Shown: piece by piece, positions 31,492 to 37,202 of the stretch
Position numbering within the stretch: position 1 is the first letter of the stretch
How the letters are laid out: every line of letters begins with the position of its first letter
NCBI RefSeq assembly: GCF_003334815.1
Contig: NZ_QOWO01000005.1
Reading direction: 5' to 3' (one strand)
Origin: Escherichia coli
GTDB lineage: Bacteria > Pseudomonadota > Gammaproteobacteria > Enterobacterales > Enterobacteriaceae
Length of the DNA stretch: 64,000 nt
Program-made: the position numbers and the translations under genes
The notes under the pieces: generated by a model
Seen by the model: the letters and a program-made list of their open reading frames with translations, nothing else
Told to the model about the DNA's origin: nothing
Databases searched by the model: none

Positions 31492-31790
31492 CGAGATTGT
31501 TGTCGGATGCGACGCTATGCGTCTTATCCGACCTACAGTTCAGTTCACCCCGTAGGCCTGATAAGTCGCGTCAGCGGCGCATCAGGCATCGGTTGTCGGA
31601 TGCGACGCTATGCGTCTTATCCGACCTACAGTTCAGTGCACCCCGTAGGCCTGATAAGTCACGTCAGCGGCGCATCAGGCATCGGTTGTCGGATGCGACG
31701 CCATCCGTCTTATCCGACCTACAGTTCAGTGCACCTCGTAGGCCTGATAAGTCGCGTCAGCGACGCATCAGGCATCGGCTGTCGAATACA
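31492..31790. repeat. Tandem BIME array: three ~93-bp units each carrying two REPs, filling the prpB-prpC intergenic region
   Basis: Unit tgtcggatgcgacgctatgcgtcttatccgacctacagttcagtgcaccccgtaggcctgataagtcgcgtcagcggcgcatcaggcatcggt repeated at about 31501, 31594 and 31687 with a few substitutions. Confidence 0.85.
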
Positions 31791-35728: not shown

Positions 35729-35974
35729 CTACGTAATCAACCTGATTTGCCGAATCACGGCCATCGGCGATGATAGCCCCCGTAATGCGTGGTCCTTATT
35801 TCCGATAAGTTTACTTGAGTCTTTAGCTTCCCATTTCAGCCCACTCTCCCCTGTGTGGGCTTTTTTCATTGGTCTGCCCCATCCTGAATAGCCAAACAAT
35901 GGCAATGTTCCACTTTGCAGGGATGATAATAAGGGGATCTGATTCAGAAGAGTTTTGAAAAGTTGGACCGCCAT
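35729..35974 (-). CDS. yahM: Small hypothetical protein YahM (coding status doubtful)
   Basis: 81-aa ORF MAVQLFKTLLNQIPLL...; its ATG lies inside the 3' acceptor strand of a tRNA-like sequence, so it may be a spurious ORF. Confidence 0.45.
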   Translation of the reverse strand: MAVQLFKTLLNQIPLLSSLQSGTLPLFGYSGWGRPMKKAHTGESGLKWEAKDSSKLIGNKDHALRGLSSPMAVIRQIRLIT

Positions 35975-36044
35975 CGAGGCCTCGAACCCCGTACCATACA
36001 ACAATCCTGGTTGTCGTCTGCTCTTCCTGATGAGCTAATGGCGG
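35964..36044 (-). other. tRNA-like element (probable pseudo-tRNA / tRNA relic) with encoded CCA
   Basis: Minus strand: ccgccat|ta|gctc|atcaggaa|gagc|agacg|acaac|caggatt|gttgt|atggta|cgggg|ttcgagg|cctcg|atggcgg|t|cca. Perfect 7-bp acceptor stem, D-arm with GG, T-arm with TTCGAGG loop, discriminator and CCA; the anticodon region is non-canonical (28 nt between arms, loop lacks U33). Confidence 0.5.
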
Positions 36045-36386
36045 TTTTTGATATGAGCCTTACAGCATATTTTCTGTCAGGCTTGAGTGCGATGCGTAAG
36101 ATACAGAAAAGACCCCACGCAAACATGATGGAATTATGATTTTTTTCATATGAATGTCAACCAACACATTCACAAAACATCTGCATGAGATCATTTTTTA
36201 TACACCGCATGGCTGCGAAACCACTACTGGTGCTTTTTTAAGCGAAGTGTCGCCGATCACAACAAAATATCGGCGAAAAAAGAGATGGAATGCCAGTTGG
36301 CATACAGATATACAGATGAAATGATTACCTGCATTGCGATTCACTCTCAGGTGGAATAACAACTTGCAGGTGGAACCCTTTCTGAA

Positions 36387-37202
36387 CTAAAGAGTGTAGC
36401 GGATTTTAACGTGCTTATTTACAGGATAATATCTGTCACCTAATTCCTGCACTCTATTAGATATCCATTCATTTAATCGCGCATCATCTCTGTATGTTTT
36501 TACGTCCAGAACAGAGAGCAATAACATCACCAGTGATTCAGGAAAAACAGGGTAGATATTTTTTAAGTGTAATAATAATCCATGCGCAAGCGCCTGCTTA
36601 ATGGGCGCGTCTGTCTCCGGAATAGACGACATTTCGCGAAGCCATTTTTCCACATGCATACACTCTTTCCCTTTAGGGAAAATTCTCAGCAAAGGCATAT
36701 GGTATTCAAGAAGAATACATTTGCAATCTGTTCGCACTGAATCGATAAACTGCACTAATTTCTTAAGCCCGGTAAAGCGTCCAGCCTGCACGTTTGCTTT
36801 AATATCAAGAAACGCATCATCCTGGTCATATACCCAAACTGTCCCTTTTTGATTTTCAAGTATGTGAAAAACAAACTTAACCGGGTGATCAGGGTAATCC
36901 ATCCAGTCATAAAATCCAGGGAAATCATTAAACTGCACATTTATGGTGAGTGCGTTATCGTCTGACCACTCACAGTCTCGTACGGCAGCCATGAGATGAA
37001 TGAGTTTGTCGTCATCGACTAAATCATCACGACAATCATAAGGATAATCATAATATTGTTTAATCAAAACCTTGAATATATCGACACAGGAAACCAGGGA
37101 GCTTTTGATATCCTCTGGTAACTGATTGTTTTTAACCGTATTAAGTATGCTTTGTTGCGTATATGGCATCAAATTATTGTGCGGAGCTTTTAATGATATC
37201 AT
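36387..37202 (-). CDS. yahL: Uncharacterised protein YahL
   Basis: 271-aa ORF MISLKAPHNNLMPYTQQSILNTVKNNQLPEDIK...; AT-rich gene; synteny between yahK and yahM. Confidence 0.8.
   Translation of the reverse strand: MISLKAPHNNLMPYTQQSILNTVKNNQLPEDIKSSLVSCVDIFKVLIKQYYDYPYDCRDDLVDDDKLIHLMAAVRDCEWSDDNALTINVQFNDFPGFYDWMDYPDHPVKFVFHILENQKGTVWVYDQDDAFLDIKANVQAGRFTGLKKLVQFIDSVRTDCKCILLEYHMPLLRIFPKGKECMHVEKWLREMSSIPETDAPIKQALAHGLLLHLKNIYPVFPESLVMLLLSVLDVKTYRDDARLNEWISNRVQELGDRYYPVNKHVKIRYTL

What the first reader, a model, noticed from the sequence alone, without database searches (positions are those of the whole stretch)
35964..36044. Full-length tRNA-like relic with encoded CCA overlapping the start of yahM
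Read 5'->3' on the minus strand (36044->35964), the sequence folds as a tRNA: ccgccat (acceptor 5') / ta / gctc-atcaggaa-gagc (D-arm with G18G19) / ... / cgggg-ttcgagg-cctcg (T-arm with TTCGAGG loop and one G-U pair) / atggcgg (perfectly complementary acceptor 3') / t / cca. The region between the D- and T-arms is 28 nt rather than about 23, and its only hairpin (acaac-CAGGATT-gttgt) lacks U33, so it is probably a decayed tRNA rather than a working one. The yahM ATG (35974..35972) sits inside the 3' acceptor strand, which questions whether yahM is a real gene. tRNA relics often mark old integration sites, and the AT-rich yahL next to it would fit a horizontally acquired patch. I do not recall any RNA feature annotated here.
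Basis: seen in the sequence. Interest (0 to 1): 0.6.

Follow-up and report, generated by a model that had tools for sequence, protein, structure and literature searches.

The report
Conserved phage-derived tRNA-like gene at yahM
The 81-base tRNA-shaped sequence at the start of E. coli "yahM" is not a decaying relic but a strongly conserved, promoter-driven, non-decoding tRNA-like gene descended from a phage arginine tRNA, while yahM itself does not behave like a protein gene.

Summary
ARAGORN calls a tRNA at exactly 35964-36044 (minus), with a perfect 7-bp acceptor stem, D arm, T arm and encoded CCA. The anticodon arm is abnormal, and Rfam's tRNA model does not report the sequence.

It is not a random relic. 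Its acceptor, D and T arms match the middle tRNA (argN, tRNA-Arg UCG) of the ileZ-argN-argO cluster of lambdoid/Stx phages. It belongs to a variant family that PGAP labels "tRNA-OTHER": 97 unique sequences from 73 Enterobacterales species genomes and more than 120 viral contigs. The scaffold is almost invariant. The central hairpin is hypervariable and encloses 4-6 nt in 64 of 92 members.

In Escherichia the element shows 0/81 substitutions across E. coli, E. albertii, E. whittamii, E. ruysiae and sp. E1V33, while its leader shows 9-15/82. It is a perfect match in 93% of E. coli records that have it. An 11/12 sigma-70 promoter sits about 82 nt upstream, and a published reporter study confirms a yahM promoter.

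The yahM ORF is frameshifted, stopped, diverged or absent in relatives and shows no codon periodicity.

Most likely this is a tRNA-processed, non-decoding tRNA-like RNA of unknown cellular role. No transcript was measured here.

The parts
36151..36172 (-). Palindrome TGAATGT-N8-ACATTCA overlapping the -35 box; looks like an operator
   Evidence: Read. Conserved in all Escherichia species aligned. Its function is inferred. A preprint reports IHF repression at the yahM promoter but gives no coordinates in its text.
36133..36160 (-). Sigma-70 promoter: TTGACA (36160-36155), 16-nt spacer, CATAAT (36138-36133)
   Evidence: 11 of 12 consensus matches. 3-9 substitutions in 51-52 nt in the lineages outside typical E. 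coli. A yahM promoter and TSS were confirmed by a massively parallel reporter assay. That the published TSS is this promoter is my inference.
36045..36126 (-). Predicted 5' leader of about 82 nt with two hairpins (about 36125-36088 and 36083-36056); the TSS near 36126 is inferred
   Evidence: Fold of the predicted primary transcript. The leader diverges by 9-15/82 between species, with a 1-nt indel in E. whittamii and E. ruysiae.
35964..36044 (-). tRNA-like element, 81 nt: acceptor 36044-36038 / 35974-35968, D arm 36035-36020, central 7-bp/6-nt-loop hairpin 36017-35998, T arm 35991-35975, N73 = U at 35967, CCA 35966-35964
   Evidence: ARAGORN; fold; family model R1 87.2 bits; 0/81 substitutions in five Escherichia species; perfect match in 4822 of 5171 E. 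coli records.
35955..35963 (-). U-rich 3' trailer ACTTTTCAA; candidate endonuclease entry site for 3' maturation (inferred)
   Evidence: Identical in E. coli, E. whittamii and E. ruysiae; 1-3 changes in E. albertii, E1V33 and the SCPM lineage.
35729..35974 (-). Annotated yahM ORF (81 aa); judged not to be a conserved protein-coding gene, and most likely the 3' trailing transcript of the element
   Evidence: No Pfam, NCBIfam or PHROG match. Frameshift in ST131, stop at codon 12 in O157:H7, indels or absence in other species, and substitutions by codon position of 7/9/5 and 18/19/19.
35839..35866 (+). Intrinsic-terminator shape on the opposite strand (GCCCAC, 10-nt loop, GTGGGC, TTTTTT), probably the yahN terminator, lying inside 'yahM'
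   Evidence: Read. Conserved in E. coli and E. albertii. Missed by the scan because its loop exceeds 8 nt.

Best explanation
This is a stand-alone gene for a non-decoding, tRNA-shaped small RNA.

Origin: it descends from the argN tRNA-Arg(UCG) gene of lambdoid/Stx phage tRNA arrays. It belongs to a variant lineage (PGAP's 'tRNA-OTHER') in which the tRNA body is held almost constant: 7-bp acceptor stem, U8, A14, G18G19, A20-A21, T arm with TTCGAGG, and encoded CCA. The anticodon arm in this lineage has become a free-varying hairpin that cannot read codons. One copy was fixed in the Escherichia ancestor next to yahN.

How it most likely works, with all of the following steps inferred:
1. A near-consensus sigma-70 promoter about 82 nt upstream makes a precursor.
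2. RNase P cuts at C1.
3. An endonuclease cut in the U-rich trailer, followed by 3' exonucleases, trims to the encoded CCA. This releases a stable RNA of about 81 nt.
4. The rest of the transcript, the 'yahM' region, runs on without a terminator into the convergent yahN.

The RNA acts through its tRNA body rather than through an anticodon. My best guess is that it is a competitor or decoy for a tRNA-binding factor. The partner and the cellular role are not known. yahM is not a real protein gene.

Shown here: homology, family membership, structure conservation, purifying selection, promoter sequence, and decay of the yahM ORF.
For: Parentage:
- The acceptor stem, D stem, T arm, N73 and CCA are the same as phage argN, with 1-2 changes per half.
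- No K-12-type host tRNA is close; the best is argU, with 55 of 85 aligned positions.

Family:
- 220 copies give 97 unique sequences, from 73 Enterobacterales species genomes and more than 120 viral contigs.
- 97.4% of cells pair in the cloverleaf. Pair 7-66 is compensated: C-G 54, U-A 37, one break.
- The loop enclosed by the conserved central stem is 4-6 nt in 64 of 92 members and 7 nt in 17. The 'anticodon' differs among close relatives.
- Family model R1 scores the K-12 copy 87.2 bits. In the nearest whole genome it is a single copy, and real tRNAs score at most 58.7 bits.

Selection in Escherichia:
- 0/81 substitutions in E. coli, E. albertii, E. whittamii, E. ruysiae and sp. E1V33.
- For comparison: leader 9-15/82, and the coding 3' end of yahN 5-11 in 62-73 nt.
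- Perfect match in 93% of E. coli records, against 30% and 43% for equal-length neighbouring pieces.
- The one common variant (O157:H7, U68C) turns a G.U pair into G-C.
- The same pattern appears at four other independent solo loci: element 98-100% identical, flanks 38-82%.

Transcription:
- 11/12 promoter, conserved across species.
- Published reporter and TSS evidence for a yahM promoter.
- yahM-yahN form a convergent overlapping transcript pair in RNA-seq.
- 'yahM' is listed among small transcripts in a small-RNA-enriched library.
- Solo relatives carry tRNA-type promoters and textbook terminators.
- The precursor fold keeps the cloverleaf.
Against: - No direct evidence that a mature RNA of about 81 nt accumulates. 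Processing by RNase P and the 3' enzymes is inferred from shape only.
- RF00005 does not recognise it, so tRNA enzymes might not either.
- There is no terminator after the element in E. coli.
- The locus is missing from about 250 of 5426 complete E. coli genomes, so it is dispensable.
- No conserved protein partner or neighbouring gene points to a function. The decoy idea is a guess.
- Most scaffold pairs never vary, so covariation support rests mainly on one pair.
- Loci were found with an exact 25-nt pattern, which inflates identity in the 5' third of the element.
Confidence: 0.68

Rival explanations
1. Neutral relic: a dead phage tRNA pseudogene left by a decayed prophage or an old integration event, with no present function.
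For: The anticodon arm is abnormal and there is no RF00005 hit. The origin is phage. The neighbouring yahL is an AT-rich accessory gene. The locus is absent from some E. coli genomes.
Against: There are zero substitutions in 81 nt across five species whose leader, promoter and neighbouring coding sequence all diverge. The only frequent SNP preserves pairing. The promoter is conserved. Four other solo loci show the same pattern. There is no att repeat and no integrase. The copy is full length rather than a 3' fragment.
Confidence: 0.06
2. Processing scaffold only. The tRNA shape is kept because it guides RNase P and 3' maturation, setting the ends of neighbouring RNAs. In phage arrays those are the tRNAs 1-3 nt away; in E. 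coli it is the downstream transcript. The excised RNA itself does nothing.
For: 149 of 220 copies sit in tightly packed tRNA operons with 1-3 nt spacers, where misfolding of one member could harm its neighbours. The hairpin loop is unconstrained across the family.
Against: Solo copies with their own promoter and terminator have no neighbour to process, yet they are 98-100% conserved. In Escherichia the downstream 'yahM' sequence is not conserved or is absent. Acceptor stem pairs 1-6 are invariant at the sequence level, not merely paired. In Escherichia the hairpin loop is also invariant.
Confidence: 0.14
3. The conservation acts on DNA rather than RNA. The 81 bp could be a protein-binding or recombination site (for example an attB for some integrative element), or part of the control region of yahM or yahN.
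For: Positions 1-6 of the acceptor stem never vary in 92 unique sequences, which could reflect sequence-specific recognition. tRNA genes are common integrase targets (established knowledge). One strain has an IS1 inserted in the T loop.
Against: The compensated pair 7-66 (54 C-G, 37 U-A, 1 break) and the G.U-to-G-C change in O157:H7 are RNA-level signatures. No island, integrase or att repeat is seen next to the element in the Escherichia loci examined. Members lie in operons of real tRNAs and end in CCA.
Confidence: 0.05
4. It is a working decoding or aminoacylated tRNA of unusual shape. Examples would be the 'tRNA-Ser(GGA)' that ARAGORN names, or a frameshift or doublet decoder with a 6-nt loop.
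For: ARAGORN call. The acceptor, D and T arms and CCA are perfect. A20, an arginine identity element by established knowledge, is kept.
Against: There is no long variable arm for Ser identity. There is no U33, and the central stem is 7 bp. Loop length and sequence differ freely among relatives: 65 distinct loop sequences, and 'anticodons' of every kind including 2-nt ones. The discriminator varies: A 52, U 34, C 9, G 2.
Confidence: 0.04

Closest known systems
argN, tRNA-Arg(UCG), of the ileZ-argN-argO cluster of Stx/lambdoid phages (for example Stx2a_WGPS8; 933W-type)
   Same: Identical acceptor stem on both strands, D stem, T stem, discriminator U and CCA. One change in the T loop, and one substitution plus one indel in the D loop. 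Some relatives occupy the same slot between ileZ and argO.
   Different: argN has a normal 5-bp stem and a 7-nt loop with anticodon UCG, and scores 53.6 bits on RF00005. The window element has a 2-nt junction, a 7-bp stem and a 6-nt loop, gets no RF00005 hit, and sits alone in the chromosome with its own promoter.
'tRNA-OTHER' / 'tRNA-Pseudo' features in automated annotations of prophages and plasmids (pHX138.261ft_1, phiP27 middle position, Yersinia phage YeP1)
   Same: Same family by sequence (75-86% identity) and by family model R1. Same 8-nt D loop ending GGAA. Non-canonical central hairpin.
   Different: Those copies are embedded in phage late-region tRNA arrays. The exact K-12-type sequence (one further copy differs by C49A) was found only in chromosomal Escherichia/Shigella loci in my sample. 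I found no study of these features in the searchable literature.
tRNA pseudogenes of E. coli K-12 that mark prophage attachment sites (ptwF, pauD, pawZ; recalled from memory, not from a tool)
   Same: tRNA-derived sequences tied to phage history. Two low-scoring RF00005 hits in the nearest genome (positions 296571 and 585353) may be such sites (the identification is mine).
   Different: Those are att-site duplicates at prophage ends. This element is full length, has no repeat partner, no prophage and no integrase, and is under strong purifying selection.
Pseudo-tRNA 'tRNA-Other' of Bacillus cereus (a non-decoding tRNA with a regulatory role; recalled from memory)
   Same: The concept is the same: a chromosomal tRNA-shaped RNA that is not used for decoding but is kept by selection.
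   Different: No sequence relationship was tested or is expected. The organism and the presumed mechanism are different, and enterobacteria lack T-box control.

Membership tests
Canonical decoding tRNA (Rfam RF00005) | Score at or above the family gathering threshold (29 bits) | tested here: not met
   No hit at gathering score, none at E <= 10 on 211 bases, and none at E <= 10 per genome in the nearest genome, where 81 other hits are listed.
Canonical decoding tRNA (Rfam RF00005) | 7-bp acceptor stem, D arm with G18G19, T arm with the T-Psi-C loop and G53-C61, 3' CCA | tested here: met
   Sequence and fold; ARAGORN call.
Canonical decoding tRNA (Rfam RF00005) | 5-bp anticodon stem with a 7-nt loop carrying U33 and a purine at 37 | tested here: not met
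   The fold gives a 7-bp stem with loop CCAGGA. The alternative 5-bp stem has loop CAGGATT, with A at position 33 and T at position 37.
Phage argN tRNA-Arg(UCG) | Shared acceptor, D and T sequence with argN | tested here: met
   64 identities in the global alignment. The 5' 25 nt and the 3' 28 nt differ by 1-2 positions each.
Phage argN tRNA-Arg(UCG) | Anticodon UCG in a normal loop; position between ileZ and argO downstream of Q | tested here: not met
   No such loop. No neighbouring tRNA, since ARAGORN finds only this one in the window. The neighbours are yahL and yahN.
Variant 'tRNA-OTHER' family (model R1, defined here) | Invariant scaffold (C1-A6 acceptor, U8 A9, GCUC/GAGC, D loop AnCnGGAA, T loop UUCGAGN, CCA) with a non-canonical central hairpin | tested here: met
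   R1 87.2 bits, E about 1e-20. All invariant columns of alignment A2 are present. Note that the element was itself one of the 92 training sequences.
tRNA-gene attachment-site relic of an integrated element | Partial 3' tRNA copy forming a direct repeat across an island that carries an integrase | tested here: not met
   The copy is full length. Neither the 25-nt nor the 16-nt 3' end has a second match in the 64 kb, allowing 3 and 2 mismatches. No integrase lies next to the element.
Protein-coding gene yahM | Intact ORF in relatives and codon-periodic divergence | tested here: not met
   Frameshift, nonsense codon, indels or absence. Substitutions by codon position are 7/9/5 and 18/19/19. No protein family match.
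Mature, processed stable RNA (RNase P substrate) | A discrete RNA of about 81 nt with a 5' end at C1 and a 3' CCA in vivo | not testable with these tools
   Only indirect support: an active promoter and 'yahM' listed in a small-RNA library.

The most novel reading that the evidence does not exclude
E. coli K-12 and the whole genus Escherichia carry an unannotated, functional, non-decoding tRNA-shaped RNA gene. It belongs to a class of phage-born tRNA bodies that were retained from prophage tRNA arrays at five or more separate chromosomal loci across Enterobacteriaceae. Their constant acceptor/elbow scaffold engages a tRNA-binding factor, for example as a decoy for a tRNA-targeting toxin, a defence nuclease or a modification enzyme. 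The former anticodon hairpin is a free or specificity-giving module.
Probability: 0.3. Interest if true: 0.85.

Novelty: new variant of a known kind. Interest (0 to 1): 0.66.

Why it matters
If the RNA accumulates, the best-studied bacterial genome holds an unannotated RNA gene hidden under a 'y-gene' ORF. The promoter, expression changes and stress responses published for 'yahM' would then really describe a tRNA-like RNA.

The wider family shows that phage tRNA arrays carry a conserved member that cannot decode, and that hosts have kept it on its own several times. It occurs in Stx-phage late regions, on the Salmonella Infantis megaplasmid, and at solo loci in Citrobacter, Enterobacter, Klebsiella and others. 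This offers a concrete, testable entry point to the question of what non-decoding tRNA bodies do in bacteria and phages.

It is also a practical annotation point. ARAGORN labels these elements with arbitrary amino acids, tRNAscan/PGAP labels them 'tRNA-OTHER' or misses them, and ORF callers place hypothetical proteins on top of them.

Tried and rejected
- **Rfam scans.** Run at gathering and permissive thresholds over the window, the 211-nt region and 24 related loci. There is no known family for the element; only real tRNAs, STnc100, isrC and naRNA4 appear nearby.
- **Host-tRNA parent.** Rejected. The best K-12-type tRNA (argU) shares neither the acceptor stem nor the T stem.
- **Relic of ileZ or argO beside the element.** Homology to phage DNA stops 8 nt upstream and at the CCA. 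No second tRNA-like hit is found.
- **Integration scar.** No att repeat. YahL and YahM match no phage family.
- **Conserved protein partner.** The solo copies lie in unrelated neighbourhoods: bla/ydgH-like, rcnR/cytochrome bd, GNAT/MBL, DUF481/glycosyltransferase, peptidase C69.
- **The 60-aa ORF through the element (35944-36126).** Rejected. A 1-nt indel in the leader of E. whittamii and E. ruysiae breaks the frame.
- **Leader covariation.** I used wrongly guessed coordinates, so it is discarded.
- **Promoter regex.** It was too strict and found almost nothing. The promoter motif statement rests on reading.
- **Hairpin loop sizes from the minimum-free-energy fold.** They over-extend stems, so the alignment-based count is used instead.
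- **Literature.** Eight searches found no description of the element or family. Subscription-journal papers, including the original phage genome papers, are not searchable here.
- **Large protein-homology searches for YahM.** Not run, because the DNA comparison already answered the question.

Full report
**1. What is there**

The window is the E. coli prpR-yahO-yahN-yahM-yahL-yahK region.
- a perfect 7-bp acceptor stem;
- U8-A9;
- a 4-bp D stem with an 8-nt loop holding G18G19 and A20-A21;
- a T arm with loop TTCGAGG and a G53-C61 pair;
- discriminator U and an encoded CCA.

Between the D and T arms lie 28 nt instead of about 23. ViennaRNA folds them as a 7-bp stem with a 6-nt loop, CCAGGA.

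ARAGORN calls a tRNA at exactly these coordinates, naming it tRNA-Ser(gga), and finds no other in the window. Rfam's tRNA model does not report it at any threshold tried. RefSeq genomes annotate only the yahM CDS here, sometimes with a 'hypothetical protein'. The fold energy alone is unremarkable (z = -1.88), so the case rests on homology and conservation.

**2. Where it comes from**

blastn of the region against plasmids and phages matches only the tRNA-sized piece, window 35964-36052. The match is the middle gene of the three-tRNA cluster that lies between Q or a methylase and the stx or lysis genes of lambdoid phages.

In Stx2a phages that gene is argN, a normal tRNA-Arg(UCG) scoring 53.6 bits on RF00005. 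The window element has the same acceptor stem, D stem, T stem, discriminator and CCA as argN, with one or two changes in each half. No tRNA of the nearest K-12-type genome is comparable.

In phiP27 and on plasmid pHX138.261ft_1 the same slot holds an 81-nt version with an aberrant central arm. PGAP calls the plasmid copy 'tRNA-OTHER'. The phiP27 copy is not annotated at all.

**3. It is a family**

- A BLAST search of 401 Enterobacteriaceae genomes hit the tRNA-sized piece alone in dozens of them.
- A 25-nt pattern specific to the variant D arm found 73 species-representative genomes, essentially all Enterobacterales, and more than 120 viral contigs.
- The 220 copies reduce to 97 unique sequences of mostly 73-84 nt (three truncated copies of 65-69 nt).
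- In an alignment of 92 of them, the cloverleaf pairs in 97.4% of cells.
- Acceptor pairs 1-6 and most D-stem pairs never vary.
- Pair 7-66 switches between C-G (54) and U-A (37), with one break.
- The central stem (about ACGAC/GUUGU) is kept through A-U/G-U changes.
- The central stem encloses 4-6 nt in 64 of 92 members, 7 nt in 17, and 8-13 nt in the rest.
- There are 65 distinct loop sequences, and the discriminator base varies.
- ARAGORN gives members arbitrary identities, including 2-nt 'anticodons'.
- Some members pass RF00005 at 33-41 bits; many do not.

This is a lineage of tRNA bodies that no longer decode.

**4. Two kinds of context**

About two thirds of the copies (149 of 220) sit in tight prophage tRNA operons such as Met-X-Thr-Gly, X-Gly or Ile-X-Arg, with spacers of 1-3 nt. 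The other 71 are solo, between ordinary chromosomal genes that differ from genus group to genus group. Many solo copies have a tRNA-type promoter and, in several groups, a textbook intrinsic terminator about 29 nt downstream.

Copies also occur on the Salmonella Infantis megaplasmid and on an IncC plasmid next to blaSED.

At four solo locus groups the element is 98-100% identical between species while the flanking 100 nt are 38-82% identical. One caveat applies: these loci were found with an exact 25-nt pattern, which forces identity in the 5' third.

**5. The Escherichia copy is under strong purifying selection**

Alignment of the locus covered these lineages:
- E. coli: this window, ST131 and a divergent lineage (strain SCPM-O-B-8794);
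- Shigella flexneri;
- E. albertii;
- E. whittamii;
- E. ruysiae;
- Escherichia sp. E1V33.

It shows one conserved block, about 36178-35955, made of promoter, leader, element and a 9-nt trailer. Both flanks are replaced. Upstream lies yahL, the end of an SNF2-helicase gene, or the yahK end directly.

Substitutions against the window:

| Segment | Result |
|---|---|
| Element | 0/81 in every lineage except S. flexneri, which has one change (C49A) that breaks a T-stem pair |
| Leader | 9-15/82 in the non-E. coli lineages |
| Promoter | 3-9 in 51-52 nt |
| Coding 3' end of yahN | 5-11 in 62-73 nt |

The first three non-K-12 loci in this comparison came from a whole-region BLAST, not from the pattern search.

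Across the complete E. coli genomes searched, the 81 nt are a perfect match in 4822 of 5171 records. An equal-length yahM piece is perfect in 1525 of 5114 records, and an equal-length piece upstream of the promoter in 1758 of 4081. The imperfect copies sampled are all O157:H7, with one change: U68C, which converts the G51.U63 wobble into a G-C pair.

The exact K-12-type sequence, plus one copy with the C49A change, was found only at this chromosomal locus, not in phage contigs. Gene conversion from prophages therefore does not explain the identity. The nearest whole genome has a single copy.

**6. Transcription**

On the minus strand there is a TTGACA (36160-36155), a 16-nt spacer and CATAAT (36138-36133), matching 11 of 12 consensus positions. 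It is conserved in all the species and overlapped by a 7-nt palindrome.

A massively parallel reporter study confirms a yahM promoter and TSS and reports IHF repression. That their promoter is this one is my inference.

No terminator follows the element. RNA-seq work lists yahM-yahN as a convergent overlapping pair. A small-RNA-enriched library lists 'yahM' among its differentially expressed small transcripts.

The predicted primary transcript folds into two leader hairpins plus the intact cloverleaf (z = -2.83).

**7. yahM**

The annotated ATG lies in the 3' acceptor strand. The state of the ORF in each lineage is:
- ST131: frameshifted;
- O157:H7: stopped at codon 12;
- S. flexneri and the divergent E. 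coli lineage: broken by 2-bp and by 4-bp/1-bp indels;
- E. albertii: heavily diverged;
- E. whittamii and E. ruysiae: absent, with about 207 bp missing.

Substitutions show no third-position excess: 7/9/5 and 18/19/19. No Pfam, NCBIfam or PHROG family matches.

Part of the 'ORF' is a terminator-shaped hairpin on the opposite strand, probably belonging to yahN.

**8. Interpretation**

The data exclude a neutral relic and an att-site scar. They fit a domesticated, phage-derived gene for a non-decoding tRNA-shaped RNA.

Maturation by the tRNA-processing enzymes and action through the tRNA body are inferences. The cellular role is unknown. I rank a decoy or competitor role first and a pure processing-scaffold role second.

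I found no description of the element or the family in the searchable literature. The family is visible only as automated 'tRNA-OTHER' or ARAGORN calls. I therefore rate it a new variant of a known kind, of above-average interest, pending a simple Northern blot or tRNA-seq test.

Noticed in passing
window 35839-35866 (+): Terminator-shaped hairpin (GCCCAC, 10-nt loop, GTGGGC, T6) about 127 nt after the yahN stop, lying inside the annotated yahM ORF. The frameshifting indels of ST131 and Shigella fall in its T/A run.
   Followed up: partly
window 36151-36172 (-): Palindrome TGAATGT-N8-ACATTCA overlapping the -35 box of the element's promoter. It is conserved in all Escherichia species aligned and looks like an operator. 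A preprint reports IHF repression of the yahM promoter.
   Followed up: partly
window 35944-36126 (-): A 60-aa ORF that starts at the predicted TSS and runs through the whole tRNA-like element. PGAP annotates a 'hypothetical protein' over the element in some genomes, possibly this ORF. A 1-nt leader indel in E. whittamii and E. ruysiae breaks it.
   Followed up: yes
window 36387-37202 (-), yahL: yahL (GC about 0.37-0.42) is accessory. It is absent in ST131, E. albertii and sp. E1V33, and an SNF2-helicase gene end replaces it in E. ruysiae and E. whittamii. It has no significant Pfam, NCBIfam or PHROG family match (two weak Pfam hits below cutoff).
   Followed up: partly
window 4404-4481, 6511-6586, 6610-6687, 26705-26781, 31555-31626: Five Rfam naRNA4 (REP325-type repeat) matches above the gathering score.
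   Followed up: no
L238 2501-2577; L239 2502-2576: Family copies on a Salmonella Infantis IncFIB megaplasmid near adiA (one of the 145 Salmonella plasmid records hit) and on an IncC plasmid beside a mobilised blaSED segment.
   Followed up: partly
L241 about 1501-2350 (E. coli DETEC-S792): An IS1 is inserted in the T loop of the element, with the duplicated target visible. This is a natural knock-out strain.
   Followed up: partly
L001 3571-3777, L002 4582-4793, and L012, L021, L024: The prophage sRNA STnc100 lies a few hundred bases downstream of the tRNA arrays that carry the element, and isrC lies nearby on the plasmid.
   Followed up: no
window 36045-36125: This window carries a private SNP in the leader (C where almost all E. 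coli have T, in the GTTTG[C/T]GTGGGG run). Only 1 of 5169 records matches the 81-nt leader piece perfectly.
   Followed up: partly
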